Below, in pieces: positions 9,831-54,213 of a stretch of DNA of 64,000 nt. Position 1 is the first letter of the stretch. Every line of letters starts with the position of its first letter. A program made the translations under genes and the position numbers. The notes under the pieces were generated by a model. The model was not told the DNA's origin. It searched no databases and worked only from the letters and a program-made list of their open reading frames with translations. This stretch comes from a virus (Duplodnaviria; Caudoviricetes), in IMG/VR virus record IMGVR_UViG_3300031992_000011; one strand, given 5' to 3'.

Positions 9831-9901
9831 GCGTCCATAGCACAGAGGCAGTGCACCGGCTTCCCAAGCCGGGGACGCCAGTTCGATTCTGGTTGGACGC
9901 T
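9831..9901 (+). tRNA. tRNA-Gly(CCC)
   Basis: Cloverleaf GCGTCCA/TGGACGC, anticodon loop TTCCCAA. Confidence 0.95.
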
Positions 9902-9908
9902 CAAGTAC

Positions 9909-10119
9909 TGCGAGTATAGACCACTTAGTAGTGACCGGTGTAAGCGCTTGGGTAGCTCGAGGCAATGTCCGAGCGTGCAGTCGTGGGGCAACGTGCACCC
10001 TCAGACCGGTGAAACGTGTTGGTGCTTGTGAAGGCCCATACGAGGTGGCGCAACAGATACGGTTCCCGCGTGGGGAATATCCAAGCCCGTGACAGCCGCC
10101 GCTCGTCAATTTACTCGCA
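9909..10119 (+). ncRNA. unidentified multibranched ncRNA (~210 nt) between tRNAs
   Basis: Closing stem TGCGAGTA/TACTCGCA, GCTTGGGTA/TATCCAAGC, several internal hairpins. Confidence 0.6.
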
Positions 10120-10122
10120 TAT

Positions 10123-10197
10123 AGGGAAGTGGCTCAGTCCGGTTAGAGCGCTTGCTTTGGGAGCAAGAGGCCGCAGGTTCGAATCCTGTTTTCCCTA
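10123..10197 (+). tRNA. tRNA-Pro(TGG)
   Basis: Cloverleaf, loop TTTGGGA. Confidence 0.95.
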
Positions 10198-10211
10198 CAA
10201 AAAAAAATAAC

Positions 10212-10285
10212 ACTCCAGTGGCGCAATTGGTCAGCGTGTCTGTCTTATACACAGTAGGTTGTAGGTTCAAGTCCTACCTGGAGTA
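10212..10285 (+). tRNA. tRNA-Ile(TAT)
   Basis: Cloverleaf ACTCCAG/CTGGAGT, loop CTTATAC. Confidence 0.9.
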
Positions 10286-10309
10286 CATTTTTGAAAAACA
10301 ATCAGCATT

Positions 10310-10528
10310 ATGCCGAAACTTAATCTAAATGAAGTACTGAATGATGACGATGTCATCAAGGCGTTGAACCCTAAAGAATGGGAGTTCAGGTGTGGCAGTT
10401 GTGACAACTTCTGTGACATCTTCGGGAGATATTCCGAGTTCAAAACCATTGAAAGATGCCCGTTCGAGGGGAAGGTGACGTGGGACACTGATTGGAGAAA
10501 GATTGGCTGTAAGTGCTATTGGAACTAA
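10310..10528 (+). CDS. small Cys-rich protein within tRNA array
   Basis: CGSCDNFC...CPF...GCKC. Confidence 0.65.
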   Translation: MPKLNLNEVLNDDDVIKALNPKEWEFRCGSCDNFCDIFGRYSEFKTIERCPFEGKVTWDTDWRKIGCKCYWN

Positions 10529-10531
10529 AAT

Positions 10532-10605
10532 GGTCCTGTAACTCAGTTGGTCAGAGTGCCTGACTCATAATCAGGGAGTCGTAGGTTCAAGCCCTACCGG
10601 GACCA
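10532..10605 (+). tRNA. tRNA(CAT), probably Ile2 (lysidine type) or elongator Met
   Basis: Cloverleaf GGTCCTG/CGGGACC, loop CTCATAA. Confidence 0.9.
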
Positions 10606-10614
10606 CAATGCAAT

Positions 10615-10688
10615 TGCGGGGTGGAGCAGATGGTCAGCTCGTTTGGCTCATAACCAAAAGGTCGCAGGTCCGAGTCCTGCCCCCGCAA
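10615..10688 (+). tRNA. tRNA-Met(CAT), initiator-like body
   Basis: TGCGGGGTGGAGCAG 5' end typical of fMet; anticodon stem TTTGG/CCAAA; T-loop TCCGAGT. Confidence 0.85.
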
Positions 10689-10752
10689 CAACACAGTCTG
10701 CCGATAAGAGATGAACACCTATTTATGTCTATAGCAGATATAGCATTGAAAT

Positions 10753-11481
10753 ATGAATAGGATAAGGCAAATCATCAACGAGGCAGTCCGAGAGACCTTG
10801 TTGTTTGAAGCGATCAAGTCAAGTTGGTTGAAAAGGTTCTTCGCCGAGCATGGAGGTGTGGACAGCACTATGCACAACGACTACTTGGGCGACGCACAGG
10901 ATGAGGATATCGAGGACGTGAAGGTTTTTCCTTCAAAGAAGGAAGCGTTTGAAATGGCGTGGAAACTGAGACGTGAGCACATAACCGGTTTTCGTAAAGT
11001 ATATGTCGCCAAGGACGGCACGGCAGTTCTTGTCGTGTACAAGGATTCTGTAAAATCAAACCCGACATGGGGCGGAGAAGCGTCCGCAAAGACAGCCGAC
11101 AGGTATTGGAGAAACGGTGAAAGGTTCACTTCGTACAATCCTGAAACCGGTCAGAGAGTACCCGGATACCGTGACGACAGGGGCACCTACACATACAGTG
11201 ACGGAAAGTCAAGCGAAGGTGCCGCCAGATTCGGCATAAGGAATTCGGACGATTACCGTAGACATGTGGCGTTCGTCAGAGATCAGAGGGCGAAGGCAAA
11301 ACAGAACGGAAAAGAGGATGATTTCAACCGTTGGCGTGATGCAGAAGCCAAGAGAGTCAAAGACTACGCTGAAGAAAAGAAGAAGGAACGTGATTGGCAG
11401 AGGGAATATTTCGGGCTCAGTGACCGTGAGCGAGAACGCAGACTGTCAAGACCTGCCCCATTGGACAAGCGTTTCAAATAA
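10753..11481 (+). CDS. leader-family protein (IRQIINEAVRETLLFE)
   Basis: Leader motif; TATTTAT at 10720-10726. Confidence 0.8.
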   Translation: MNRIRQIINEAVRETLLFEAIKSSWLKRFFAEHGGVDSTMHNDYLGDAQDEDIEDVKVFPSKKEAFEMAWKLRREHITGFRKVYVAKDGTAVLVVYKDSVKSNPTWGGEASAKTADRYWRNGERFTSYNPETGQRVPGYRDDRGTYTYSDGKSSEGAARFGIRNSDDYRRHVAFVRDQRAKAKQNGKEDDFNRWRDAEAKRVKDYAEEKKKERDWQREYFGLSDRERERRLSRPAPLDKRFK

Positions 11482-11530
11482 CACGAATGCGTTAAACGGC
11501 CGCGCCGACATGTCAGTGCGGTCATTTTAT

Positions 11531-11602
11531 GCCCCCTTAGCACAGCGGTAGTGCAGTTCACTTGTAATGAACAGGTCGTTGGTTCGAATCCGACAGGGGG
11601 CT
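11531..11602 (+). tRNA. tRNA-Thr(TGT)
   Basis: Cloverleaf, loop CTTGTAA. Confidence 0.95.
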
Positions 11603-11694
11603 CAACATAGCAAGGTAACAACAAGGCGCGACTCCCCCAACCGCGCCGGTAACCCGCACGTAACAGCCGATAGGGGCGGCGACCTTGCCGATAC

Positions 11695-11766
11695 GCGGAT
11701 GTAGCACAACGGTTCGTGCACCAGCCTTCCAAGCTGGGGATGACGGTTCGATTCCGTTCATCCGCT
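11695..11766 (+). tRNA. tRNA-Gly(TCC)
   Basis: Cloverleaf, loop CTTCCAA. Confidence 0.95.
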
Positions 11767-11895
11767 CAAAAAATGGGCTGAAATTTGTGGGCATAAAGTT
11801 AAAACCTCAAGACGTTGAAAGCAGCAGTATAGGGACTGCTATTGGCGGTCAGATTAACCGTAGCCACATCTTGCAAGAGTTTCGGCCTTTAATAT

Positions 11896-11973
11896 AGCGG
11901 AGTGGAGCAGAAGCAGCTCGTCAGGTTCATACCCTGAAGGTCGTCTCAAACGGTGCAAGTCCTACCTCCGCCA
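11896..11973 (+). tRNA. atypical initiator-like tRNA-Met(CAT) with T-arm insertion
   Basis: A1:C72 mismatch, loop TTCATAC, T arm GT-CTCAAAC-GG TGCAAGT CCTAC. Confidence 0.6.
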
Positions 11974-11981
11974 CTAAAATA

Positions 11982-12105
11982 TGGGATTCTACACAGAGTA
12001 TTCTTTTAAGTAGATGCATATGCTTACTAGGATATTGGGTGGTATTAGATTTTGAAACTGCAGATAATCAAAATCTATTAGGAGGTTCGAGCCATCTGTT
12101 TCCCA
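11982..12105 (+). ncRNA. enlarged or degenerate tRNA-Gln(TTG)-like element
   Basis: TGGGA/TCCCA ends, GGTTCGAGCC T-loop, 10-bp TAGATTTTGA/TCAAAATCTA hairpin at the anticodon position. Confidence 0.45.
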
Positions 12106-12119
12106 CAAAATTCAAAAAT

Positions 12120-12193
12120 GGTGCGTTAGTTCAGTTGGTTAGAATGCCTGCCTGTCACGCAGGAGGTCACGGGTCCGAGTCCCGTACGCACCG
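12120..12193 (+). tRNA. tRNA-Asp(GTC)
   Basis: Cloverleaf, loop CTGTCAC. Confidence 0.95.
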
Positions 12194-12247
12194 CTTCTTG
12201 ATTGTTTGAATGAGTGGTTTGGGTCGTGTGAGCGCCCAGACCTTTTT

Positions 12248-12321
12248 GCTCCCTTAGCTCAGTTGGATAGAGCGTGAGGTTCCTAACCCCAAGGTCATGT
12301 GTTCGAGCCACATAGGGAGTA
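12248..12321 (+). tRNA. tRNA-Arg(CCT)
   Basis: Cloverleaf, loop TTCCTAA. Confidence 0.9.
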
Positions 12322-12325
12322 CTAT

Positions 12326-12411
12326 GGATGGGTGGCAGAGTTGGTCGATTGCACCGGTCTTGAAAACCGGCGGCCCGCAAGGGTCCGGGGGTTCGAATCC
12401 CTCCTCATCCG
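12326..12411 (+). tRNA. tRNA-Ser(TGA)
   Basis: Long variable arm, loop CTTGAAA. Confidence 0.95.
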
Positions 12412-12418
12412 CATAACA

Positions 12419-12502
12419 GCGACAGTGGCGGAACTGGTAGACGCGCCACCTTGAGGGGGTGGTGGGCACACGCCCGTGAAGGTTCGAGTCCTTTCTGTCG
12501 CA
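12419..12502 (+). tRNA. tRNA-Leu(GAG)
   Basis: Long variable arm, loop TTGAGGG. Confidence 0.95.
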
Positions 12503-12546
12503 CAGGCCGGCCGCGAGACGCGCAACGGTCCGTGGCATGGGCATTT

Positions 12547-12620
12547 GCTGCCATCGTCTAATTGGTTAGGACGTCGCCCTTTCACGGCGGAGATTACGGG
12601 TTCGAGTCCCGTTGGCAGTA
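12547..12620 (+). tRNA. tRNA-Glu(TTC)
   Basis: Cloverleaf, loop CTTTCAC. Confidence 0.95.
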
Positions 12621-12624
12621 CAAC

Positions 12625-12696
12625 GACTCCGTAACTCAGTGGTAGAGTATCGCACTTTTAATGCGAGAGTCGTGGGTTCAAGTCCCACCGGGGTCA
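12625..12696 (+). tRNA. tRNA-Lys(TTT)
   Basis: Cloverleaf, loop CTTTTAA. Confidence 0.95.
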
Positions 12697-12710
12697 CGAA
12701 CGCGACAAGA

Positions 12711-12783
12711 GGGCCGCTAGCTCAGATGGTAGAGCGCTACATTCGCATTGTAGAGGTCACCGGTTCGAATCCGGTGCGGTCCA
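12711..12783 (+). tRNA. tRNA-Ala(CGC)
   Basis: Cloverleaf with G3:U70, loop TTCGCAT. Confidence 0.95.
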
Positions 12784-12930
12784 CAGACAGAGCGTGTCGC
12801 GAACACGCACGCCATCGCACGAGAGGATTGGGGATGGTAACCCCGGATTGTGGAGGTCGTCTAACCAACGATAGAAGTGGCCGTCCGGTACATAATCAAC
12901 GGACAAACATCGTGACGCTTGGCATGTCAT

Positions 12931-13002
12931 GGGGTGATAGCTCAACGGTAGAGCAATTGGCTGTTAACCAATAGGCTGCAGGTTCGAATCCTGCTCACCC
13001 CG
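12931..13002 (+). tRNA. tRNA-Asn(GTT)
   Basis: Cloverleaf, loop CTGTTAA. Confidence 0.95.
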
Positions 13003-13076
13003 CAACTCAGAAGAACGGGCGAATCGCCCTGACAATGGGGATTGAACGGCACCGCCAAAAGTGGTGCCTTTTGCCG

Positions 13077-13160
13077 GGGAGCGTAACCGGTAATTGGTAG
13101 CCGCACGGACTGTAAATCCGTTCCTTAATTGGACTGGTCGTTCGAGTCGACCCGCTCCCA
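13077..13160 (+). tRNA. tRNA-Tyr(GTA)
   Basis: Variable arm, loop CTGTAAA. Confidence 0.9.
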
Positions 13161-13171
13161 CAATGACTGTT

Positions 13172-13245
13172 CTTCCTGTAGCTCAACTGAATAGAGCAAT
13201 GCACTTCTAATGCATAGGTTCTGGGTTTGAGTCCCAGCGGGAAGA
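13172..13245 (+). tRNA. tRNA-Arg(TCT)
   Basis: Cloverleaf, loop CTTCTAA. Confidence 0.9.
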
Positions 13246-13254
13246 CTAATAACA

Positions 13255-13327
13255 AGGCGGTTAGCTCAGTTGGTAGAGTGGCGGTCTCCAAAACCGCAGG
13301 TCGCACGTTCGAGCCGTGCACCGCCTG
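13255..13327 (+). tRNA. tRNA-Trp(CCA)
   Basis: Cloverleaf, loop CTCCAAA. Confidence 0.95.
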
Positions 13328-13335
13328 CAAAAAAA

Positions 13336-13425
13336 GGAAGCATACCCAAGTTGGTGAAGGGGGCGGCTTGCTAAGCCGCTAGGCCTCGGCGACGGGGCGC
13401 GGAGGTTCGAGTCCTCCTGCTTCCG
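13336..13425 (+). tRNA. tRNA-Ser(GCT)
   Basis: Long variable arm, loop TTGCTAA. Confidence 0.95.
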
Positions 13426-13432
13426 CACAAAC

Positions 13433-13505
13433 AGGGTAGTAGCGCAGTTGGTAGCGCGCTACGTTCGGGACGTAGAGGTCGCAGGTTCGAATCCTGTCTA
13501 CCCTA
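13433..13505 (+). tRNA. tRNA-Pro(CGG)
   Basis: Cloverleaf, loop TTCGGGA. Confidence 0.95.
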
Positions 13506-13513
13506 CTTGAATG

Positions 13514-13568
13514 TTAACAATTATTAACATGAAAAATTTGCAAGGTATATTTTTTTGTCGTACCTTTG
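13514..13568 (+). promoter_or_regulatory. Bacteroidota-type promoter for scaffold-RNA array
   Basis: TTAA 13514/13524, TTTG 13537, TACCTTTG 13561-13568. Confidence 0.8.
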
Positions 13569-13574
13569 CACTTG

Positions 13575-13662
13575 AAAACAATGGTGAGTGACAGGGTTAC
13601 TTCGCATACAAACTGTTACAAGATTAAAAAGCAACGAACCCTTCGCATATCTTCCTTGTTTT
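13575..13662 (+). ncRNA. scaffold RNA 1 (GGUUACUUCG family, minimal cargo)
   Basis: Closing stem AAAACAA.GG/CCTTGTTTT, AGGGTT/AACCCT, motif at 13595-13604. Confidence 0.65.
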
Positions 13663-13682
13663 TGTTCTTTGACATTCTTAAA

Positions 13683-13817
13683 ATGTGTGCAGTGACTGTG
13701 GCGGTTACTTCGTTGATTAGCTCATTTGGTAGAGCATAAGTTTATGGTACTTAGGGTAGATGGTTCGATTCCATCATCACAAAAGATTGTTTGCCGCCGC
13801 AAAATTTTCTCACACAT
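13683..13817 (+). ncRNA. scaffold RNA 2 with embedded tRNA-like body (anticodon ATG)
   Basis: ATGTGTG/CACACAT, TGTGGCGGT/GCCGCCGCA; D, anticodon and T arms at 13714-13779. Confidence 0.75.
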
Positions 13818-13825
13818 AACTCATA

Positions 13826-13958
13826 TTCCGCATAGTGACGGGCGGTGTTACTTCGAATTATTTAGCGCAGTGGTTAGCGCATCACACTTTTAATGCGAGA
13901 GTCGCCGGTTCGATTCCGGCAATGATTCTTTAAAAGCACCCCCATTTTTCTTGCGGAA
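13826..13958 (+). ncRNA. scaffold RNA 3 with embedded tRNA-Lys(TTT)-like body
   Basis: TTCCGCA/TGCGGAA closing stem; cloverleaf at 13856-13928. Confidence 0.75.
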
Positions 13959-13965
13959 AAGCACA

Positions 13966-14090
13966 ACCGGTTGTGACGTATCTCGGTTACTTCGATACGT
14001 TGGTTCGAGTCCAACTTTGTCCGCCATACAATTGGACGAATAGTCAAGTGGTTAAGACAGAATTCTTTACCGAGGCGAGTTTCCACCGGT
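13966..14090 (+). ncRNA. scaffold RNA 4, circularly permuted tRNA mimic (YrlA/Y-RNA-like architecture)
   Basis: ACCGGT/ACCGGT, CTCGGT/ACCGAG; order is T arm, closed acceptor stem, D arm. Confidence 0.75.
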
Positions 14091-14141
14091 ACAAAAAACG
14101 GTCTGCTTCAATGTAGATGGATTTTGTAGATGGTTTAACGT

Positions 14142-14174
14142 GCGGTGCGCTGTATATCAGTGTGCCGCTTTTTT
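14142..14174 (+). terminator. intrinsic terminator ending the scaffold-RNA transcript
   Basis: GCGGTGCGCTG/CAGTGTGCCGC + T6. Confidence 0.8.
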
Positions 14175-14207
14175 GTTTGAGTATAAAAAGACAACACAAA
14201 AAAAATA

Positions 14208-14516
14208 ATGAACGACATTGACAAATGGATGTGGAAGCCATGCACATTCACAGTATTCAACAACGCCGTGGACAACGGATGGGCAATAGACATGCGGAAC
14301 AGCACAGGACAAGACGTGGACATATCGGATTGCGAATTCCATAAAGTTGATATGGGTGACAGCGTGCGAGACGGAATAAAGAGCGGGAACAAGACATTGG
14401 TGAACGCAGAACAAGAGAAGATAGACACATTCAACAAGGAGAACTATCCGGGTATGGCCATGTTCCTGATACAGGACATAGGTTTGCTCTATGTCATAAG
14501 GCAACGAAATGATTAA
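14208..14516 (+). CDS. hypothetical protein
   Basis: 102-aa ORF with A-rich leader. Confidence 0.7.
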   Translation: MNDIDKWMWKPCTFTVFNNAVDNGWAIDMRNSTGQDVDISDCEFHKVDMGDSVRDGIKSGNKTLVNAEQEKIDTFNKENYPGMAMFLIQDIGLLYVIRQRND

Positions 14517-14625
14517 CAGGCCACTACACGTTTCGGCGCACTTACCGCGTGAGGGCGTTCGCTGCTTTTGACATTTGACATTCTGCGTGTCGCTTTAATT
14601 GGATAAGTGAACATGATACAGAAAG

Positions 14626-14665
14626 AAAATCCACCGGTGGTTTGGACTATCGGTGGATTTTTTTT
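14626..14665 (+). terminator. intrinsic terminator
   Basis: AAAATCCACCGGTGGT/ACTATCGGTGGATTTT + T tail. Confidence 0.75.
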
Positions 14666-14739
14666 GCGAACAAGTTTTAACTACCTTTGGTTTGGTGGTG
14701 ACACTTCCGAGAGGTACCGGAGTCAAAAACATTCAAGTT

Positions 14740-14794
14740 TTAAAGAAAATTAACTTGTTATATTTGACATCCTAAGTCATTTTTTGTACCTTTG
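14740..14794 (+). promoter_or_regulatory. Bacteroidota-type promoter with TTAA-N6-TTAA box
   Basis: TTAA 14740/14750, TTTG 14763, TACCTTTG 14787. Confidence 0.8.
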
Positions 14795-14813
14795 TGCCAA
14801 AATATAATCACTC

Positions 14814-16922
14814 ATGCTATACGACGAAGATATAAAGGCGAAGGAACAAATAGTTGAAGATGCCAAGTTGGTGTTGAAACGCGAGTTTGTCGGTATTGAC
14901 GACATCATTGACGGTGTAATGGAGAATGTGCGAACATGGTACATGTTTCCGAACCTGTACAACCGCCCGCTCATCATCAACCTGTTCGGAATGACAGGTG
15001 TCGGCAAGACAAGTCTTGTGCAGCGCATATCCCAGCTGCTTGATTTGGAAAAGGACTACTATTATTTCAACTTTGGTGAGATAAGCGAATGTACTGCGTG
15101 GGATATTGAAGAGAGAATAAATGACGAGATCAGCGACGAGAAATCGAACCGTGTTTTCGTGTATGATGAATTTCAGTACGCGTCTACCATTGCCGAAGAT
15201 GGAACTGAGAGAGAAAAGAGAAGCGGACTTAAACCGTTCTGGGAACTTATGGACGCAGGAAAGATGCACAAGCGGGACTCGGTTTACCTGTACAGTTCGT
15301 TATTCAGCACCGCCAATTATCTTATACGCATAAATAACGTGTGCAGAATACAACTTGAGAACGGCGCTTGGGTTAACCGCGACGAATGCCTCTCACATTT
15401 CGGCGAATACGAGATTTCCAGATTCAGCACAGTCCTCAACACAAGAGGCGCGAGCGGAGCCCCAACTGAACGACCGAATGCCATTGGAAAAATTGAAGCC
15501 GATGGAATGGGCAGTAATCTCCCAAACAACATGCCGAGCAAGGGAAGCATGCAATCATTCATATTGACAGCGGACACATTCTCCACAATCGTAAGGCGGT
15601 CTCGCAGGAGCAGAAGGGACACTGACAGTTACATAGAACTCTTCAACGAGTTTTGCACATACGATATAGACCAACTGATCGCCCGGATTGTCGACGTGTA
15701 CAACATGGCGTGCAAGGGATTTGATCTGGATTTTCACAATTCTCTCATCTTTGTCTTGGCGAACCTTGACGAGGCGTACAACATGACGTTCAACCTGAAC
15801 CCGGACATGTCGGCCGACACTTTCCATAAGATGACGAAAAATATCTCCATCGTCAACATCAAGAAGGCGCTGCAGAAAAGGTTCAGAAACGAGCAGATTG
15901 CGCGTTTGGGCAACATACATTTCATATACCCTTCATTGTCAAGCAAGACTTACCGCGAGATAATACGCCGAAACCTTGACAAGTTCACGGTTGAATTCCG
16001 TACAATGACCGGAATAGAGGCTTCTTATGACAAGAAGATTGTTGACCTTATATACAAAGACAGTGTGTTCCCGACGCAGGGGACGCGTCCGGTATTCTCG
16101 ACAATATATGATTTCGTGAACTCGAAGGTGTCAAACATCATCATAGACATATATGACACGGGTATAACAGCGCAGTCAGTACACTTTACCGCAAGCGGAA
16201 GGATGACAAAGGTTGTCGTCACAAGCGGTGACTGTCAAGGAAAAAAAGTGTTCAAGTACAAGAACGTAATCCGTGTCGACTCATTGAGGGACACGAAGAA
16301 GGACACACAACAGGCGATAGTGGCACTTCATGAGAGTGGACACTTTGTCACCTATCTCCTCACCTTCGGCAAGACGCCGGAAAAACTTGTGTCGCGCACA
16401 GCGAATGACGGCGACGGAGGGTTCATGCAGCATTTCGCCGATGACGATGTATCGTCATTCACCAAGATAGGTCTTAAAAGACATCTGATCGTTCTGCTCG
16501 GAGGATATGCCGCAGAGAAGATGTTTTTCGGCGATGACCACATGACGGGCGGCGCCTGCTCGGATCTGGAATCTGCGACAAAACTGGCCGTCAGGATGGT
16601 CCGTGAATACGGGATGGGGTCGTTCAAGTTCACATCAACGACAATGTCTTCACCGATGCATGAGAGGATGATACTTCTTGACCATGACAGGAAGAAGCAC
16701 GTCGATGACGAGGTCAACAGGTTAATAGAAGGCGCGTACAGTGAGGCGTGCGAATATCTCGACAAGTGGCGGAGCATATTAAAGGAATCTGCCGAGTATC
16801 TGTGCACACATTCATCCATGCCAAAGGAGATAATGGAAAAATTGTTCAAGAAAATACCGGCAGAAGCGATAGGGGAGAATTTTGACAGGCAGTTTTATAT
16901 GGATATGATACATAAAATCTGA
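14814..16922 (+). CDS. AAA+ ATPase fused to M41 (FtsH-type) zinc peptidase, no TM anchor
   Basis: Walker A GMTGVGKT, Walker B VYDEFQ, HESGH, LLGGYAAE, GACSDLESAT. Confidence 0.85.
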   Translation: MLYDEDIKAKEQIVEDAKLVLKREFVGIDDIIDGVMENVRTWYMFPNLYNRPLIINLFGMTGVGKTSLVQRISQLLDLEKDYYYFNFGEISECTAWDIEERINDEISDEKSNRVFVYDEFQYASTIAEDGTEREKRSGLKPFWELMDAGKMHKRDSVYLYSSLFSTANYLIRINNVCRIQLENGAWVNRDECLSHFGEYEISRFSTVLNTRGASGAPTERPNAIGKIEADGMGSNLPNNMPSKGSMQSFILTADTFSTIVRRSRRSRRDTDSYIELFNEFCTYDIDQLIARIVDVYNMACKGFDLDFHNSLIFVLANLDEAYNMTFNLNPDMSADTFHKMTKNISIVNIKKALQKRFRNEQIARLGNIHFIYPSLSSKTYREIIRRNLDKFTVEFRTMTGIEASYDKKIVDLIYKDSVFPTQGTRPVFSTIYDFVNSKVSNIIIDIYDTGITAQSVHFTASGRMTKVVVTSGDCQGKKVFKYKNVIRVDSLRDTKKDTQQAIVALHESGHFVTYLLTFGKTPEKLVSRTANDGDGGFMQHFADDDVSSFTKIGLKRHLIVLLGGYAAEKMFFGDDHMTGGACSDLESATKLAVRMVREYGMGSFKFTSTTMSSPMHERMILLDHDRKKHVDDEVNRLIEGAYSEACEYLDKWRSILKESAEYLCTHSSMPKEIMEKLFKKIPAEAIGENFDRQFYMDMIHKI

Positions 16923-17048
16923 CATATTGTCATTTTTTTGCCGTGGTATTGACTTTGCTATATCATATAATGGATTTTTAAATAAAGTACTACAATGTAA
17001 AGCACTTTGTTTATCAGTCAAAAAGACGACACAAAAATTTTAAGGATT

Positions 17049-17495
17049 ATGATATTTGATTTTAGCAAAACACCAATTTTCAGTTTATTTGACCCGTTTG
17101 AGACTTTTGAAGAAATCTTTTCGGATGTACTGAAGGAAAAGAATGGAAAGTTCGACAGCGAAAGAAGTGAGAAGACTTCCATATACAAGGACAACGATCT
17201 TGTATACGAGAGAGAAAAAGAATGGAAGAACGATGAGTTGGTGAAGGACGAAGAGAAAGGACGTGACACACTGAAGTCGCTGACCGGACGCAATGACAAG
17301 CGTTCATGTGAAAAAAAGTCGGAAACTTCGGAAGATACCAAGAGTACAGGCATCATGCTTGCAAAGAAGGACAAGTACATAAACACTCTTATCGAGAAGA
17401 ACAGAAAACTCAAGGCGCTGAACGATCATCTCTCCGAAGAAAACGAAAGACTGCGCAACAAAATAAAACAAGCACACGACAGTCTCAGACCATAA
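17049..17495 (+). CDS. hypothetical protein with C-terminal coiled coil
   Basis: ORF 17007..17495, ATG start at 17049. Confidence 0.7.
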   Translation: MIFDFSKTPIFSLFDPFETFEEIFSDVLKEKNGKFDSERSEKTSIYKDNDLVYEREKEWKNDELVKDEEKGRDTLKSLTGRNDKRSCEKKSETSEDTKSTGIMLAKKDKYINTLIEKNRKLKALNDHLSEENERLRNKIKQAHDSLRP

Positions 17496-17558
17496 AGGGA
17501 TTTTTTCTGCATAGTATGTTCAGGTGCGTTTGACAATTTTGGCATTCGCACTTGTTTT

Positions 17559-17613
17559 TTAACAATTTTACACACAAAAAATTTTGAAAAAGGCAAAGTT
17601 CAATGTAACTTTG
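17559..17613 (+). promoter_or_regulatory. Bacteroidota-type promoter
   Basis: TTAA 17559, TTTG 17583, TAACTTTG 17606. Confidence 0.75.
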
Positions 17614-17634
17614 CGGTGTCTTATAAATGGTAAA

Positions 17635-18729
17635 ATGTCAAACAAGGATTATTACAACATACTTGGTGTCGGAAGGGACGCGACGGATGAAGACATAAAA
17701 AAAGCGTACAAGAAACTTGTGCTGCAATATCATCCTGACCGTCAACAAGGTAAGACTGACAAGGAGAAGGAGATTGCAGACGCCAAATTTAAGGAAATAA
17801 ACGAGGCATACCATATATTGACAGACAGCACCAAGCGGAAACTTTACGACACATACGGAACAGTCGATGAACAGGTGGATGAAGGCATGGGACACATGTC
17901 AGATTTCATGCGCGAATTCATGAGACGGAACGGTTTCACCGAAAATGGATTCCAAAACAAGTCAATGGGCAGCAATATTGAAGTACACGTCAATCTGACT
18001 GTCGCGGAGATTCTTGGCGGAAAGAAGAAGGAAGTGACGTTCAAACGTGCACGGAAATGTGTACATTGCAACGGGACCGGGTCAGCTGACGGGAGAGAAT
18101 CGAAATGCCCAAATTGTGGAGGTACCGGATTTGTCACAAGGTTCCACAGGAGTGGATTCGGCGCGGTACAACAGACGATGACGTGCCCTTCCTGTGGGGG
18201 AAGCGGAAAGGTGGTCACATCACCGTGTCATCATTGCGGGGGAAGTGGGCTCGAAGACAAGGAAGACAAAATCTCATTCAACATACCTATAGGTGTTTGT
18301 GACGGAGCATATACTGTGTTCTCTGGATATGGGGATGAATCTCCCGACGGCGGACCGGCAGGTGATGCGATACTCATATTCCACATCGACATGCCTGACG
18401 GTTTCTCCGTAGGGAAAGCGGCAATGCAATACGGAATACCGACGTCTGACATATACAGTATCGTCGGTGAGATCAACGTGCCTATATTAGACTGCATAAC
18501 GGGCGGGGATGTAAAATTCGTACATCCCGACGGAAAGAAGATAAAGTTCAAGATAGGCAAATGCACTGAGGACGGAACAAGCGTCAGGATGGCAGGAAAG
18601 GGACTTCCTCGGAAAAATGGAACCATGGGGGACTTATATATGGTGATACATGCCAAGATGCCGAAAACGCTCAATTTCGACGACATAAAGAAAATAAACG
18701 AACTTAAAAAAAGTAATTCGTTCAAGTGA
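17635..18729 (+). CDS. dnaJ: DnaJ (class A) chaperone
   Basis: DYYNILGV, HPD, four CxxCxGxG repeats, GDLY. Confidence 0.95.
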   Translation: MSNKDYYNILGVGRDATDEDIKKAYKKLVLQYHPDRQQGKTDKEKEIADAKFKEINEAYHILTDSTKRKLYDTYGTVDEQVDEGMGHMSDFMREFMRRNGFTENGFQNKSMGSNIEVHVNLTVAEILGGKKKEVTFKRARKCVHCNGTGSADGRESKCPNCGGTGFVTRFHRSGFGAVQQTMTCPSCGGSGKVVTSPCHHCGGSGLEDKEDKISFNIPIGVCDGAYTVFSGYGDESPDGGPAGDAILIFHIDMPDGFSVGKAAMQYGIPTSDIYSIVGEINVPILDCITGGDVKFVHPDGKKIKFKIGKCTEDGTSVRMAGKGLPRKNGTMGDLYMVIHAKMPKTLNFDDIKKINELKKSNSFK

Positions 18730-18730
18730 T

Positions 18731-19177
18731 ATGATACACTCATGCGGAATCATACCGTTCAGGGTCAACGATGACGGAAAAATGGAATTTTTCGTCGGAC
18801 ATCCGGGTGGATGGAACAGGGATTACTGGGCAATGCTGAAAGGGCAGATGGAGGACGGCGAGAACGCGTCCGAGTCCGCAGTAAGGGAATTTACCGAAGA
18901 GAGCGGTGTGGACCTGTCGTCTTGCCGCAGTCAGATGCTGATACCGTTGGGCTCGGTGATGCAGAACCCCAAGAAAATGGTGACGGCATTCGGTTTGCAT
19001 TTTCCGGAAATAGACCCGGAAAAGTGCCATTCCAACATGGCAGACAATGGTCTGAATCCGGAGATAGACAGTTACCGGTGGATGACAATGGACGAACTTG
19101 CACATAAGACCCATGCCACACATATTGTCTTTTACGAGAAGTTGTTGTCGATGGCAGAAAACGAAGAAAAGATATGA
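18731..19177 (+). CDS. Nudix hydrolase
   Basis: Nudix box KGQMEDGENASESAVREFTEESG. Confidence 0.9.
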   Translation: MIHSCGIIPFRVNDDGKMEFFVGHPGGWNRDYWAMLKGQMEDGENASESAVREFTEESGVDLSSCRSQMLIPLGSVMQNPKKMVTAFGLHFPEIDPEKCHSNMADNGLNPEIDSYRWMTMDELAHKTHATHIVFYEKLLSMAENEEKI

Positions 19178-19755
19178 GGATAATTACCGGAAAAGACGCG
19201 ATATTCTATACCGACAGTTATGACGTGGTGCTGGTTGGGACAAGCGTGTACAATATGCTGACAAACGGTTTCCAATCCAAGATACGGTTCAAGTATCCGA
19301 ATGTGCGGGACGCAAACGACAGGACGGGATACGGCGATCTCAGGAAACTCGGCACACGTCTCACAGTTGACTGTGGAAGCACGCAAGTCTCATTAATGTA
19401 TGTGTCGAAATTTCCGAACAGCCGGCGTGTTTTCGTGGACTACGACGCGCTGAGGAACGCGCTTCTTACTGCACGGAAAGAATTTAACGGGAAACGGATA
19501 ATGACAACCGTTGTGGGTTCTACACCTTTCGACGGAAACGGAGACAAGGAGACATGCCTGTCGATAATTTCTGACTGCATGAACGGGGTCGATATTGATG
19601 TCTACGACTACGAACAAGTCCCGAGACTCGTCGAACTTGAACATTACAGGAAAATGTTAAGCGGAAAGAGGCAGACAGAACCCGAAAAATACGACAGGAT
19701 GAGATCCGAATGGGACAAATTGATGGCACGCATATACCTTCAGTCACAGAAATGA
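19174..19755 (+). CDS. macrodomain-like protein
   Basis: IITGKDAIF...IRFKYP...KLGT...VDYDAL...GNGD pattern resembling phage Poa1/Tk.4-type macrodomains. Confidence 0.55.
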   Translation: MRIITGKDAIFYTDSYDVVLVGTSVYNMLTNGFQSKIRFKYPNVRDANDRTGYGDLRKLGTRLTVDCGSTQVSLMYVSKFPNSRRVFVDYDALRNALLTARKEFNGKRIMTTVVGSTPFDGNGDKETCLSIISDCMNGVDIDVYDYEQVPRLVELEHYRKMLSGKRQTEPEKYDRMRSEWDKLMARIYLQSQK

Positions 19756-19758
19756 CAT

Positions 19759-20310
19759 ATGGCTAAGAAGAATACATACAAGAAAAAACCGCTATTCGAC
19801 GAACCGAGGATAAACGGAGAAATCACATGTAAAGGTTCTGTGAGAGTCGTGTTCAAGAGCAGAGAGAATGAACAAGAGTCTTTCAATCAGGTGATGAGTA
19901 TCGACGCCGCAAGGTCTGAGGCGGCATCTAGGTCGCTCGACCTAATTGAAATCAACCCTTCAACGACACCTCCCATATTGCGTATAGACAATTACTCTAA
20001 GTATCTGTTCGAGCAGAAAAAGAGAGTGAAGGAGAACAAGAAACCGTCGCAGCAAGTCAAAGAGATACAATTGTCGACCAACATATCCGAGCACGACATG
20101 GAGACAAAGGCCAAGATGGCCGAACGCTTCCTGTCCGAAGGGGACAAGGTCAAGGTTGTACTGAAAATGCGCGGGCGCGAACTTGGGCGACGCGAACAGT
20201 CCAAAAAATCCATACTCTTATTCATGGACCGACTTGCCGATGTCTCGCTGCCGGAGAGCATGCCGCGTGACGAGGGCAACAAGTGCATCGTCATACTCAA
20301 GAAAAAATGA
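19759..20310 (+). CDS. infC: translation initiation factor IF-3
   Basis: RINGEI, LDLIEI..PP, KEIQLSTNISEHDMETK, FLSEGDKVKV..RGRE. Confidence 0.92.
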   Translation: MAKKNTYKKKPLFDEPRINGEITCKGSVRVVFKSRENEQESFNQVMSIDAARSEAASRSLDLIEINPSTTPPILRIDNYSKYLFEQKKRVKENKKPSQQVKEIQLSTNISEHDMETKAKMAERFLSEGDKVKVVLKMRGRELGRREQSKKSILLFMDRLADVSLPESMPRDEGNKCIVILKKK

Positions 20311-21149
20311 CAAGGAGACTGAACACACGGACCACAGACAAGCCGATACCGCGTATGACTGACGCCCTGTCGGCCTACTATGCGGACATACGCAAATACC
20401 CGCGTCTGAACAAAGACGAGACGTGCCGTCTGTTCAGTGAGATGCGTCTCGGCGGCGAGGCTGCTGACAAGGCACGCGAGAGCGTCATATACAGACTTCA
20501 GAGATTTGTAGTTTCTGTCGCCAGATGCTACAGCAAGTACGGGGAGATGAGCGACTTGATAAGTGAAGGCAACTTGGGCCTGATGCGCGCCGTTGAACTG
20601 TACAATCCGGAATCAGGGAACGAGATCACATCATACGCCGTGTTCTGGATAAGGAAATACATCATCCAATACATCACCGACCAAGTCCCTCAGGTGCGTC
20701 AGAAGAACACCACAAGGAGGGTGACGTATTCAACAAAGGCAAACAGCCTGTTCTTCACCGAGCACGGGCGCTTCCCGACAGAGACCGAATTGGCCGATTT
20801 CATAGAGGAGAGATATGGGGAGAAGATAAGGGATGCTTCAGACCTCACGCAATTGTCATTCATCTCTTCTGACACTGAGTATGGAGAGGGCATTTTCGGC
20901 AGTGTCACCCAAGACATCGGAAAAAAGATGAACGAAGAAAAGAACCGGCATGACGTGGAAGTGATGATGTCTTCCCTGAACGACAGAGAGCGTGACATCA
21001 TAATGTCATACTACGGGATAGGGGGACAGAACGAGGAAAGCGCACTCGAGATAGGCGCACGCCTTTCACTCAGCGAGGAACGTGTCAGACAGATACACAG
21101 GGACGCAATCAAAAAACTCAACAAGAAATATGGCAAAAATCAAAATTAA
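20307..21149 (+). CDS. RNA polymerase sigma-70 family factor
   Basis: DLISEGNLGLMRAVE, SYAVFWIR, region 4 LNDRERDII...ERVRQI. Confidence 0.9.
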   Translation: MTRRLNTRTTDKPIPRMTDALSAYYADIRKYPRLNKDETCRLFSEMRLGGEAADKARESVIYRLQRFVVSVARCYSKYGEMSDLISEGNLGLMRAVELYNPESGNEITSYAVFWIRKYIIQYITDQVPQVRQKNTTRRVTYSTKANSLFFTEHGRFPTETELADFIEERYGEKIRDASDLTQLSFISSDTEYGEGIFGSVTQDIGKKMNEEKNRHDVEVMMSSLNDRERDIIMSYYGIGGQNEESALEIGARLSLSEERVRQIHRDAIKKLNKKYGKNQN

Positions 21150-24516: not shown

Positions 24517-24693
24517 ATGGCAAACGACACGAAGAAGCTCGAGCAAGAAATATCGACACTTTCCAAGGAAGTAGGAAAGATGTCCGACACAATGAAGGAA
24601 AGCAACCGGGTGCTGCAGCAATTGGTGAGGCAGATGGAAAAAATCACCGAGCGCATGACGCAGCAGAACGAACTGTTACGCAACGGAAAATGA
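24517..24693 (+). CDS. small coiled-coil protein (58 aa, not on ORF track)
   Basis: MANDTKKLEQEISTLSKEV...; follows TACCTTTG at 24483; ATGA-coupled to the next gene. Confidence 0.7.
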   Translation: MANDTKKLEQEISTLSKEVGKMSDTMKESNRVLQQLVRQMEKITERMTQQNELLRNGK

Positions 24694-26042
24694 TCGGATT
24701 TGACGACATAAGGAAAGAAGGACTTCTGCTCTATGAGTATGTAAGAGGCAGTCACGCATACGGACTTCAGAAACCGGACGGAAGCAGCGACATTGACACC
24801 GGCGGTGTATTCATTGAACCATACGAGTGGATAGCCGGTCTCGGGCATGACGCAGTCGAACAGGTGGCGGATGCACGCGGTGACACTGTGTGGTATGCAC
24901 TCAAGAAATACCTCAGGCTCCTCATTGTCGCAAATCCGACTATGTTGGAGAGTCTGTTCGTGCCGGAACGTTGTGTCCTGTATGAACATCCTTTGTTCGG
25001 GACAATCAAGGCGAACCGAGACATCTTCGTCACCAAAGAATGTTTCAAGTCATTCCTTGGATATGCGGTGAATCAGATAAAGAAGTGCCGCGGACTGCAC
25101 AAAATGATAGTACAAGAGGATTTCGAGCGGAAACAGCCGCTTGATTTCTGCTATACGTTCTATGGGCAAGGAAGCAGCAAGATAACCAACTGGCTTGAGT
25201 ACAGAGGTCTCAAGCAGGAGTATTGCGGACTGGTGAATATTCCGAATATGCGAGACATCTACGGATGCTACTATGACTGGCACAGACATTTTACCGAGTG
25301 CGGAATCACATATGAAGAATTAATTGAGACATTTCTCAATGGCCGTCCGGACACAAATCTGTCTGTCGTCATTGACCGGATCAAGACATGCTCCGACAAT
25401 GCCGAGAAAGAACACCTTGAACGGATGCGTGAACTCGCGGTGAAATGGAACATGGTAGATTTCATAACGAGGGAAGTCCTCGGTATGAATGAGATTTATG
25501 ACGAACACGCCGCCTGCGCTGTGATAGCAGAATGGATGAACAGACTTCAAGACAATCACTACAGTGGAATTGTCGGTCCTGACGGTCAGTCAAACGAAAT
25601 TCGACTCTCGTCCATACCAAAAGGTGAGATGCCGATATGCAACATATCGTACAACAAGGACGGATACACCAAGCACTGCGTCGAATACAAGAACCTTCAG
25701 AGATGGAAAAGGGAGAGAAACCCCGAACGCTACAAAGAAAATGTCGGCAAGAACTTTGACCGAAAGAATGTCGCCCACGCCGTGCGATTGATGCACATGG
25801 GGATAGAGATCGCCAGAACCGGAAAGGTCAATGTAGACAGGACTGACATCGACCGCGACTTTATAATGGGGATACGAATGGGTGACACGTCATATGACGA
25901 GATAATGTCATATCTTGAGTCAAAAAAGTCCGAGCTTGAAGACGCCATGATGACGTCGACGATACCGGATAGCGTTGACATGGACAAAGTAAGTGAATTG
26001 CTTGTGGCAATGAGAGAACAATTCAATAATGTCAAAAACTGA
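24690..26042 (+). CDS. Pol-beta superfamily nucleotidyltransferase (RlaP/YcgL-like)
   Basis: GSHAYGL...SDIDTGGVF, ANPTMLESLF, KNVAHAVRL. Confidence 0.85.
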   Translation: MIGFDDIRKEGLLLYEYVRGSHAYGLQKPDGSSDIDTGGVFIEPYEWIAGLGHDAVEQVADARGDTVWYALKKYLRLLIVANPTMLESLFVPERCVLYEHPLFGTIKANRDIFVTKECFKSFLGYAVNQIKKCRGLHKMIVQEDFERKQPLDFCYTFYGQGSSKITNWLEYRGLKQEYCGLVNIPNMRDIYGCYYDWHRHFTECGITYEELIETFLNGRPDTNLSVVIDRIKTCSDNAEKEHLERMRELAVKWNMVDFITREVLGMNEIYDEHAACAVIAEWMNRLQDNHYSGIVGPDGQSNEIRLSSIPKGEMPICNISYNKDGYTKHCVEYKNLQRWKRERNPERYKENVGKNFDRKNVAHAVRLMHMGIEIARTGKVNVDRTDIDRDFIMGIRMGDTSYDEIMSYLESKKSELEDAMMTSTIPDSVDMDKVSELLVAMREQFNNVKN

Positions 26043-43953: not shown

Positions 43954-44952
43954 ATGGAAAACAAAGGATTTACACTGAAGGATCGTATGTCCGCTATGGC
44001 AAGGCACTATGACATAAGGCTTGACAAGGATGGATATGTGCTTGTCATGGTGGACGGCAAGAACTTCTCCACAATGATAAAGAACAGGTATGACAAACCT
44101 TTCAGTGACGAGTTCATCGGACTGATGGACTCAACCGCCAGGTATGTGTGCGAGAATGTGGACGGATGCAAGTTTGCCTACGTGCAGAGCGACGAGATAA
44201 CGTTCGTCATCACATCATTCGACAAGAAGGAGAACATGCCGTATTTTGACAACAGACTGCTTAAGTTATGTTCGATTATACCATCGTTGGCGACCGCCAA
44301 GTTCAACAGTATGCGGGAAAAATCTGAGAAGCTATGCGTGTTTGACGCCAAGGTGTTCCCGTGCCGTTCATTCACGGACGCGTATTCGTTTCTTCTTTGG
44401 AGGCAGAACGACTGTGTGAGGAACTCAAAACAGCAGGCGGCACAAACATACCTGGACAAACGCTCCCTGCTCAACAAAAACACGGACGAACAAATCCGTT
44501 TACTTCGTGACACAACCGGAATAGAGTGGGACGGATATGATGACGGAAAGAAATACGGGCGATTCATATACAAAGTCAACGAGACACACATCAACCCGGA
44601 CGGTGAAGAGTACACAAGAGGCAGATGGAAGGTAAACGACGCATTCCTTCTCGGTGGGGACGGACGCGAGAAACTGAAGTCACTCGGGGCGATACCTGTC
44701 CGTGAGCCAGCGAATGCGAACCGTCGGTTCGAACCGTGCGAATTTTGGAGATGCCCCAAATGTGGGGGCAATCTGATTTGGGAGAATGACTATGACTGTT
44801 CGGACGTGTTTGGTGACGAATGGGGATACAGAGACGTTGACGGAAGCATAATAACGCAGTTCAGATGCGCCGACTGTGGGCGGTCTGTCGAAGTGACCGA
44901 CCCGACTCCCGACATGAAGGAGGAACAATACAGTGACTATTGGTTCAATTAA
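43954..44952 (+). CDS. Thg1-like 3'-5' nucleotidyltransferase with C-terminal Zn ribbon
   Basis: VDGKNFS, YVQSDEI, FDAK, WRQNDCVRNS; CPKC...CADC tail. Confidence 0.9.
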   Translation: MENKGFTLKDRMSAMARHYDIRLDKDGYVLVMVDGKNFSTMIKNRYDKPFSDEFIGLMDSTARYVCENVDGCKFAYVQSDEITFVITSFDKKENMPYFDNRLLKLCSIIPSLATAKFNSMREKSEKLCVFDAKVFPCRSFTDAYSFLLWRQNDCVRNSKQQAAQTYLDKRSLLNKNTDEQIRLLRDTTGIEWDGYDDGKKYGRFIYKVNETHINPDGEEYTRGRWKVNDAFLLGGDGREKLKSLGAIPVREPANANRRFEPCEFWRCPKCGGNLIWENDYDCSDVFGDEWGYRDVDGSIITQFRCADCGRSVEVTDPTPDMKEEQYSDYWFN

Positions 44953-53555: not shown

Positions 53556-53628
53556 GTGAACTATACGCCAAAAGCAAATGGGCAACCGTCACCGGTCGCC
53601 CATTCTTCGCATATTTCCGTATGCGCCC

Positions 53629-54213
53629 CTAATCTTTTCCGAACATCTTGCTGTAACTTCTTCTCGCAAAGTCGAACATCGGTTCTTTCTCTCCGCTGTC
53701 CTTCCACTTCCCGTAAGTGTAGCTGTCATTGTTCCTCACGTGTCCTATGACATTGTATTTGGATTGTCTCGCCTTGTCCCCATACATGTCGTCTGTGGCC
53801 ATACGGTTGTTGAGGCGGTCAATATCCCCTCTTAGCGAATCCACAGAAGGACGCTCATCGCCTCTGTATTTTTTCATGCACGCCCAGAATATGCTGTTGA
53901 CCATTTCAGCGTGCCTCACAGCGTCAGAAGTGAGCAAATTCCACACTTCGATGTCGTCGTCGTACGGAATCAGGTCATCAACCTCGTTTTCGACAAGGTC
54001 GTGAAGATCGTCGATTGAGTTCGAAGGTTCGGAGAAATACATCCCTATCACCTTGTCGCCTAAGATTTTTTCACCTATACTTCGGACCAAATTGGCGGCC
54101 TTCCCGTAGTCCGGCTCTTGGCCGAAGTTCGGGTTCTCTCTCCGCCACTGACGGTTCAGTCCGTCGATGACTGATTCAGTTATCAGTCGGGTGATATTCT
54201 CAACATTCTTCAT
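53629..54213 (-). CDS. leader-family-like protein (ITRLITESV)
   Basis: Short leader variant. Confidence 0.7.
   Translation of the reverse strand: MKNVENITRLITESVIDGLNRQWRRENPNFGQEPDYGKAANLVRSIGEKILGDKVIGMYFSEPSNSIDDLHDLVENEVDDLIPYDDDIEVWNLLTSDAVRHAEMVNSIFWACMKKYRGDERPSVDSLRGDIDRLNNRMATDDMYGDKARQSKYNVIGHVRNNDSYTYGKWKDSGEKEPMFDFARRSYSKMFGKD

What the first reader, a model, noticed from the sequence alone, without database searches (positions are those of the whole stretch)
13826..13958. Scaffold RNA 3 copies the anticodon arm of the phage's own tRNA-Lys(UUU)
Seen: TCACACTTTTAATGCGAGAGTCG differs by one base from TCGCACTTTTAATGCGAGAGTCG in tRNA-Lys at 12625. It has an AU-rich acceptor stem and no free CCA end. 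Known: tRNA-Lys(UUU) is the target of the anticodon nuclease PrrC and of other anti-phage tRNases. Inference: a decoy substrate or a protected reserve tRNA.
Basis: partly seen in the sequence, partly recalled or inferred. Interest (0 to 1): 0.7.

Follow-up and report, generated by a model that had tools for sequence, protein, structure and literature searches.

The report
Phage Y-like RNA with lysine arm
A rumen jumbo phage encodes a small RNA of the Ro60-partner (Y RNA) type that carries a whole tRNA look-alike whose anticodon arm was swapped in from a phage lysine tRNA, most likely its own; related RNAs display many different anticodons, so it may be bait for host proteins that read or cut tRNAs, but that is untested.

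Summary
Observation confirmed: 13881-13904 matches 12649-12672 (own tRNA-Lys) at 23/24 bases; the next-best match in the window has 6 mismatches. The element is unit 3 of four scaffold RNAs (GTTACTTCG handle, covarying bulged-U stem). Nine of nine other phages with this handle encode a TROVE/Ro60 protein, and siblings align weakly to Rfam YrlA, so it is a divergent Y-RNA-type RNA that ARAGORN and Rfam call a tRNA. It is a mosaic: the arm is 22/23 identical to the phage tRNA-Lys (host 17/23), the T arm 16/17 to a scaffold RNA of another phage. That points to an arm graft. Such a close own-tRNA match is exceptional in the family, and the same arm occurs in tRNA-Lys genes on 14 other viral contigs. 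Family cargos show 19 anticodons that obey tRNA loop rules; Lys(UUU) is one of several common ones. A decoy role is plausible but unshown. Against it, the arm is phage-type, not host-type, and the single difference favours an anticodon-hiding fold in silico. A reserve tRNA is unlikely. The scan has noted Ro60-linked anticodon-mimic RNAs, including Lys(UUU), on other genomes before.

The parts
13826..13958 (+). Scaffold RNA 3, a Y-RNA-like ncRNA: outer stem 13826-13832/13952-13958, bulged U 13833, AG/CU pairs 13834-35/13950-51, inner stem 13840-13849/13935-13943
   Evidence: Fold z -3.55; pair probabilities; family covariation
13847..13855 (+). Conserved handle motif GTTACTTCG; its last G is position -1 and pairs with C73
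   Evidence: Four exact copies in the window, all in this array; near-invariant in the alignment; on sibling RNA 4 it aligns to the YUAY motif of YrlA
13856..13928 (+). Unpermuted tRNA-like body (D arm, anticodon arm, T arm) with an A/U-only acceptor stem and C73
13881..13904 (+). Grafted tRNA-Lys(UUU) anticodon arm plus variable loop; anticodon 13889-13891; A29 at 13884
   Evidence: 23/24 identical to 12649-12672; unchanged in strains L797 and L798
12625..12697 (+). The phage's ordinary tRNA-Lys(UUU), likely donor of the arm (block 12649-12672)
13537..13568 (+). Bacteroidetes-type promoter (TTTG, 20 nt, TAnnTTTG) in front of the array
   Evidence: Sequence directly; consensus from own knowledge; not tested
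13580..13650 (+). Scaffold RNA 1, handle with a short variable insert
   Evidence: hypervariable between strains
13683..13817 (+). Scaffold RNA 2, tRNA body with short acceptor; anticodon ATG here, TTG or TGG in other strains
13966..14093 (+). Scaffold RNA 4, circularly permuted (T arm before D arm), YrlA-like order
   Evidence: Full-length weak alignment to RF02553, 18 bits, E 0.17
14142..14178 (+). Intrinsic terminator closing the array
   Evidence: 11-bp stem plus T run

Best explanation
RNA 3 is one of four small RNAs cut from a common transcript. Its paired ends form a bulged helix that is bound by the phage's Ro60/TROVE ring protein, as Y RNAs are (inferred from gene co-occurrence and likeness to YrlA). 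The ring displays and stabilises a tRNA-shaped domain that is not meant to be charged. The anticodon arm of that domain is an exchangeable part, and here it was replaced by recombination or gene conversion with a phage tRNA-Lys(UUU), most likely the gene at 12625 (mosaic shown; donor inferred). The particle most likely works as a bait or competitive inhibitor for host proteins that recognise anticodon arms, with tRNA-cutting defence nucleases the prime candidates. RNA 3 would be the Lys(UUU) member of a panel rather than a dedicated anti-PrrC RNA (inferred, untested). Odds by step: Ro60-partner RNA about 0.8; arm grafted from a phage-type tRNA-Lys about 0.8; own gene as donor about 0.65; bait function about 0.45.
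For: TROVE gene in 9/9 handle-bearing phage records (8 over the Pfam cut-off), mostly within 5 kb, and none in the one control record. In phage csAssE-Sib two such RNAs, annotated tRNA-Tyr and tRNA-Lys, directly precede the Ro60 gene; in its relative G001 they are the only tRNA-like genes. Outer helix with the U bulged out: own pairing 7.7 of 8 against 5.9 for swapped partners; A-U/G-C covariation 54/0/0/9. YrlA model aligns full length to permuted siblings, up to 41 bits, E 4e-9. Mosaic: arm 22/23 to own tRNA-Lys and 11/24 to scaffold RNA L532; T arm 11/17 and 16/17. The arm is not found in 301 Bacteroidales genomes beyond chance. Loops across the family stay authentic: G36 with G37 19/19, other 36 without G37 28/29, U33 45/48. 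In the csAssE-Sib lineage the Lys loop is kept in 23/24 contigs of an anticodon-blind sample, with compensatory stem changes. RNA 3's 74-nt body is unchanged in strain L797, while RNA 4 has 6 and the next ORF 10 differences. The window also encodes tRNA repair-type enzymes (RlaP, HD-kinase, Thg1, phosphoesterases). AAA_13 (PrrC/RloC-type ATPase) proteins occur in 8/151 Bacteroidaceae genomes. A phage Ro60-like gene counters a defence system in Bas63 (10.1101/2024.10.10.617714).
Against: No binding, expression, cleavage or rescue data. The TROVE gene of this genome lies outside the window and was not checked by me (note e1-5674829 puts it 117 kb before the window). The arm is phage-type: the Bacteroidaceae host arm differs at 6/23 positions, and C41 is the base that hinders AriB on E. 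coli tRNA-Lys (PMC12409363). A29 makes an anticodon-hiding hairpin 2.9 kcal/mol more stable than the cloverleaf in ViennaRNA (P 0.82). Copying an own tRNA is not the family rule: the 7 other cargos whose locus holds an own tRNA with the same anticodon differ from it at 3-13 of 17 bases. Published phage tRNA counter-defence works by supplying chargeable or uncleavable tRNAs, not decoys (PMC11464382, PMC11555353). Zero changes in 74 nt at about 3% strain divergence is not significant alone.
Confidence: 0.45

Rival explanations
1. Neutral graft: the RNA is a working Ro60 partner whose tRNA shape (elbow, D and T arms) is what matters. Any authentic arm will do, and the Lys arm arrived by chance gene conversion from a neighbouring tRNA gene and is starting to decay (A29-C41).
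For: Anticodons differ freely among orthologues and even strains (RNA 2: ATG, TTG, TGG; L497/L515/L532). The mismatch is uncompensated and destabilising. The close own-tRNA match is a one-off.
Against: The 36/37 rule and U33 are kept across 19 anticodons. The Lys loop is conserved with compensatory stem changes in another lineage. The A29 arm also occurs in a stand-alone tRNA-Lys gene (L748), so it need not be decay.
Confidence: 0.25
2. Tether or sensor for RNA repair and turnover: as with Rsr-Y RNA-PNPase, the tRNA domain recruits host tRNA-binding enzymes (PNPase, modification enzymes, synthetases) or phage ligases to the Ro60 ring. The anticodon picks the partner or reports nuclease attack when it is cut.
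For: This is the known role of Y RNAs (PMC4201824; phage phiLo Ro60-Yrl dampens host PNPase, PMC12135203). The genome carries a repair toolkit.
Against: It does not by itself explain 19 different, quickly switching anticodons.
Confidence: 0.2
3. Protected reserve tRNA: RNase P and a 3' nuclease release a second tRNA-Lys from the scaffold, CCA is added and it is charged.
For: Complete cloverleaf, 63.9 bits. No phage tRNA here encodes CCA, so the lack of it is no bar. M. smegmatis YrlA is cut by RNase P and gains CCA (PMC4201824). A29 may mask the anticodon.
Against: No G-C pair in the acceptor, G-1:C73 and C73 instead of the A73 of the own tRNA-Lys, and no C74. Siblings have 1-9 bp acceptors, 14 of 51 with almost none. 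The phage already has a normal tRNA-Lys.
Confidence: 0.1

Closest known systems
YrlA Y RNAs with Rsr/Ro60 (Rfam RF02553; Chen et al. 2014, PMC4201824)
   Same: 5'-3' handle stem plus tRNA-like domain with D and T arms; several RNAs from one precursor; TROVE gene in related phages; YUAY motif; sibling RNA 4 has the permuted YrlA order and aligns weakly to the model.
   Different: RNA 3 is not permuted: the handle extends the acceptor stem and a full 7-nt anticodon loop is displayed. GNCGAAN0-1G is absent and the score is below the Rfam cut-off. The Ro60 gene is reported to be far away in this genome.
Deinococcus radiodurans Yrn1 (PMC4201824)
   Same: D-anticodon-T order with the handle at the acceptor side; both handle strands kept as a bulged helix.
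   Different: Yrn1 has only a partial D arm, a 6-nt loop and no variable loop. RNA 3 is a near-complete tRNA with a real Lys arm and a different handle sequence (bulged U).
Thermus phage phiLo Ro60 with Yrl1/Yrl2 (PMC12135203; PDB 9KOP, 9L5Y)
   Same: Phage Ro60 RNP. It is the only solved relative of the TROVE protein beside this RNA family (E 6e-17).
   Different: CGAA-motif hairpin RNAs with no reported anticodon display; function tied to PNPase.
Phage counter-defence tRNA-Lys(UUU), T5 and SP15 against PARIS and PrrC (PMC11464382, PMC12409363, PMC11555353)
   Same: Phage-encoded Lys(UUU) arm that differs from the host's in the stem (C41, as in T5).
   Different: Those are chargeable tRNAs that replace the cut pool. 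RNA 3 is locked in a scaffold and keeps A31-U39, so it lacks the U39A change that blocks AriB.

Membership tests
Y RNA (Ro60/Rsr partner) | Bound by a Ro60/TROVE protein | not testable with these tools
   Needs co-immunoprecipitation or EMSA
Y RNA (Ro60/Rsr partner) | Co-occurs with a TROVE gene | tested here: met
   9/9 handle-bearing relatives. For this genome only an unchecked note (e1-5674829); no genome was held.
Y RNA (Ro60/Rsr partner) | Encoded within about 4 kb of the Ro60 gene | tested here: not met
   No ORF of Ro60 size lies within 4 kb except an FtsH-like gene. Met in most relatives; about 20 kb in G011.
Y RNA (Ro60/Rsr partner) | 80-130 nt RNA whose 5' and 3' ends pair into a bulged stem | tested here: met
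   133 nt predicted; ends not mapped
YrlA (RF02553) | GNCGAAN0-1G motif near the 5' end | tested here: not met
   The handle is GTRGTRA...GTTACTTCG
YrlA (RF02553) | Circularly permuted tRNA domain (T before D, no anticodon arm) | tested here: not met
   RNA 3 is D-anticodon-T; met by sibling RNA 4
YrlA (RF02553) | Score at the gathering threshold (69 bits) | tested here: not met
   No hit on RNA 3 at E up to 10; siblings 18-41 bits
Functional tRNA-Lys(UUU) | Cloverleaf with UUU anticodon, U33, A37 | tested here: met
   with an A29-C41 mismatch
Functional tRNA-Lys(UUU) | Stable 7-bp acceptor with A73, like the phage's and host's tRNA-Lys | tested here: not met
   0 G-C pairs, C73, G-1:C73, T74
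Functional tRNA-Lys(UUU) | Released by RNase P, CCA-added and charged | not testable with these tools
   Only contigs, no raw reads
Anticodon-nuclease decoy | Copies the host target arm | tested here: inconclusive
   Positions 29-40 equal the main Bacteroidaceae tRNA-Lys; outer stem and variable loop differ, 17/23 overall. The host species is not known.
Anticodon-nuclease decoy | Binds or inhibits the nuclease and rescues infection | not testable with these tools
   Bench test needed

The most novel reading that the evidence does not exclude
Bacteroidetes phages use a Ro60 ring loaded with uncharged whole-tRNA mimics as a re-programmable RNA sponge against tRNA-targeting immunity. They change specificity by point changes in the anticodon (RNA 2) or by grafting whole arms from real tRNA genes (RNA 3), and many genes annotated as phage tRNAs are in fact these RNAs.
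Probability: 0.3. Interest if true: 0.8.

Novelty: new variant of a known kind. Interest (0 to 1): 0.52.

Why it matters
The role of the tRNA-like domain of bacterial and phage Y RNAs is an open question (PMC4201824). This family displays full, rule-abiding anticodon arms that switch between strains, and RNA 3 catches an arm graft from a real tRNA gene, so the question can be tested with simple anticodon swaps. If bait function holds, it would be an RNA-based anti-defence strategy distinct from supplying resistant tRNAs. Whatever the function, tRNA finders call these RNAs tRNAs (here, and in GenBank OR575929), which inflates phage tRNA counts.

Tried and rejected
No whole genome was held, and look-ups of this contig or of ENA/Logan relatives failed, so the genome's TROVE gene was not checked. 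FtsH-like relatives at 45-47% identity (L344, L346, L348) show no array in the flanks fetched. Expression: a sheep-gut RNA library holds identical contigs over 13549-14094, but they start upstream of the predicted start site and the ORF beyond the terminator has similar depth, so this is not evidence of transcription. The difference table is truncated, so 'no change in RNA 3' for X4, X6 and X12 is only suggestive; L797 and L798 are the firm cases. Patterns had a wrong spacing and mean nothing; replace them. The A29G fold and the G-C counts were off register; replace them. One search selected for Lys loops, so Lys counts that include it are inflated (2 of 6 clusters came only from it). Host origin of the arm rejected (3 two-mismatch hits against 6 for the control). 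The handle-plus-D-arm pattern was at chance level in 151 Bacteroidaceae genomes; the 120 bacterial loci yielded only two parsed units, both ordinary-looking tRNA-Pro. RNAalifold on the MAFFT alignment missed the handle stems because the 3' side aligns poorly. Literature searches found no paper on this handle; the library lacks most subscription papers, and the 2020 Wolin review was not held. No protein complex job was sent, since the claim is RNA-protein.

Full report
Setting. The window is part of a 330-kb contig found in sheep and cattle gut runs. It holds 20 ordinary tRNA genes, Bacteroidetes-type promoters (sequence; consensus from own knowledge) and RNA repair-type genes: a rumen jumbo phage, probably of Bacteroidales. 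After the tRNA cluster come a promoter (13537-13568), four units that each contain GTTACTTCG (13596, 13704, 13847, 13986, the only exact copies in the window) and a terminator (14142-14178).

Observation. RNA 3 folds into a cloverleaf whose acceptor stem is continued by an inner stem, an internal loop and an outer stem (z -3.55). ARAGORN and Rfam score the body as tRNA-Lys(UUU). Positions 13881-13904 match 12649-12672 of the ordinary tRNA-Lys at 23 of 24 bases; nothing else in the window comes closer than 6 mismatches. The acceptor has no G-C pair (ordinary tRNAs: 3-6), the discriminator is C and pairs with G-1, and position 74 is T where all 20 ordinary genes have C. None of those encodes a full CCA either.

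What the scaffold is. The handle recurs in many phage and metagenome contigs, usually in arrays, followed either by an unpermuted tRNA body or by a permuted one. The outer helix with a bulged U is real: each unit pairs with its own 3' side at 7.7 of 8 against 5.9 for swapped partners, and 6.0 if the U is not bulged; the base after the bulge covaries A-U/G-C at 54/0/0/9. All nine handle-bearing phage records tested encode a TROVE protein, mostly within 5 kb, and one control without the handle does not. In phage csAssE-Sib, two units annotated as tRNA-Tyr and tRNA-Lys lie right before the Ro60 gene, and in its relative G001 they are the only tRNA-like genes. The YrlA model aligns over its full length to permuted siblings, below its cut-off (41 bits in G005, 18 bits for RNA 4), placing YrlA's YUAY on the handle's UUAC (PMC4201824). 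I conclude that these are divergent Y-RNA-type RNAs. RNA 3 fails the YrlA membership tests (motif, permutation, score) but probably works like a Y RNA; its order of arms resembles Deinococcus Yrn1. A first-stage note places a TROVE gene 117 kb before the window (e1-5674829); I could not check it.

Where the arm came from. By segment, RNA 3 against own tRNA-Lys, scaffold RNA L532 and host tRNA-Lys: anticodon arm plus variable loop 22/23, 11/24, 17/23; T arm 11/17, 16/17, 9/17; acceptor 4/14, 8/14, 5/14. The frame therefore belongs to the scaffold family and the arm to a tRNA-Lys. Its stem has two G-C pairs, where 72 of 75 cargos have 0-1. The arm is not from the host: Bacteroidaceae tRNA-Lys has a different outer stem and 301 Bacteroidales genomes lack the 19-mer. 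It is not unique to this phage either: 14 viral contigs carry it in stand-alone tRNA-Lys genes, and L748 has the same A29. The own gene, 1.2 kb away, is the simplest donor, but that is inference. Such a graft is not the family norm: among 20 cargos whose loci hold 14 or more own tRNAs, none is within 2 differences of one, and the 7 with a same-anticodon own tRNA differ at 3-13 of 17 bases. The graft predates the split of known strains: L797 and L798 have the identical body, and L797's two changes in RNA 3 fall on unpaired handle bases.

Is Lys special? In 35 frame clusters the cargos show 19 anticodons; TTG 7, TTT 6 (2 only from a Lys-biased search), TGG 6, GTT 5. Orthologues swap them, and RNA 2 of this phage reads ATG, TTG or TGG in different strains. 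Yet the loops stay tRNA-like: G36 goes with G37 in 19/19 and other bases at 36 lack G37 in 28/29, U33 in 45/48 (the m1G37 rule is own knowledge, and the counts are not phylogenetically independent). In the csAssE-Sib lineage the Lys loop is held in 23/24 contigs with compensatory stem changes. So anticodon mimicry is selected, and Lys(UUU) is one recurring choice among several, many of them known nuclease targets (PMC12409363). Acceptor stems run from 1 to 9 bp, which argues against translation.

Mechanism. Shown: structure, covariation, TROVE co-occurrence in relatives, mosaic origin, authentic and switching loops. Inferred: Ro60 binding, and bait or competitive inhibition of anticodon-reading host proteins (0.45). 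PrrC/RloC-type ATPase domains occur in 8/151 Bacteroidaceae genomes (the Pfam family is not specific), and a Ro60-like gene counters a defence system in phage Bas63. Against: the arm is phage-type and carries C41, which hinders AriB on E. coli tRNA-Lys, though an uncleaved binder could still compete. A29 makes a hairpin that buries the anticodon 2.9 kcal/mol more stable than the cloverleaf in a model without tertiary contacts or modifications; L748 suggests it is tolerated. Rivals are a neutral graft (0.25), a tether for repair or turnover enzymes (0.2) and a reserve tRNA (0.1).

Verdict. Real, and a new variant of a known kind. I found no paper on this handle. The scan has already noted Ro60-linked arrays with Lys(UUU) mimics on other genomes (e1-5402594, e1-5378702, e1-5688787); those notes are unchecked and are not support. 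What this locus adds is a whole-tRNA body and a visible arm graft. Interest 0.52.

Noticed in passing
window 13738-13752 (RNA 2): The anticodon differs between strains of the same phage: ATG in the window and X10, TTG in L797, TGG in X4, X6 and X12, always keeping G36-G37. It is a fast-switching site.
   Followed up: partly
window 13834-13852 and family alignment A1: The two conserved handle motifs (AGTGAC and GTTACT) are complementary to each other, so an alternative hairpin or pseudoknot is possible. The pairs show no two-sided covariation.
   Followed up: no
L787:8034-8252 (OR575929, phage csAssE-Sib): The annotated tRNA-Tyr and tRNA-Lys in front of the Ro60 gene are scaffold RNAs, probably misannotated.
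   Followed up: partly
window 11896-11973 and 11982-12105: Two irregular tRNA-like elements missed by ARAGORN: one scores 31.5 bits in Rfam and has a longer variable region; the other has a long insertion in the anticodon arm (also note e1-5674876).
   Followed up: no
window 9831-13506: All 20 ordinary tRNA genes encode C74 but none a full CCA; a Thg1-like gene (43954-44952) and an RlaP-like nucleotidyltransferase (24690-26042) lie in the window.
   Followed up: partly
window 13030-13040 and 14540-14800 versus L797: Strain L797 has an extra 224-aa gene inside the tRNA cluster and a 339-aa gene (no Pfam hit) between the 102-aa ORF and the FtsH-like gene: indel hotspots on both sides of the array.
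   Followed up: no
window 14208-14516: The 102-aa ORF after the array terminator has no homologue outside this phage's own cluster.
   Followed up: partly
window 9907-10110 and 12790-12925: Non-coding, GC-rich stretches between tRNA genes with no Rfam hit at the gathering threshold; possible further structured RNAs.
   Followed up: no
L791 (G006), one search hits at 53605-53675 and 55041-55113: Two scaffold RNAs (TTT and GAT anticodons) lie upstream of the TROVE gene, on the strand opposite the tRNA cluster. The Lys arm there is of a different type from the phage's own tRNA-Lys (5 differences).
   Followed up: partly
window 14814-21149: FtsH-like AAA protease, DnaJ, Nudix, IF3 and sigma-70 genes form a block conserved in related rumen jumbo phages, which also carry HSP70 there.
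   Followed up: no
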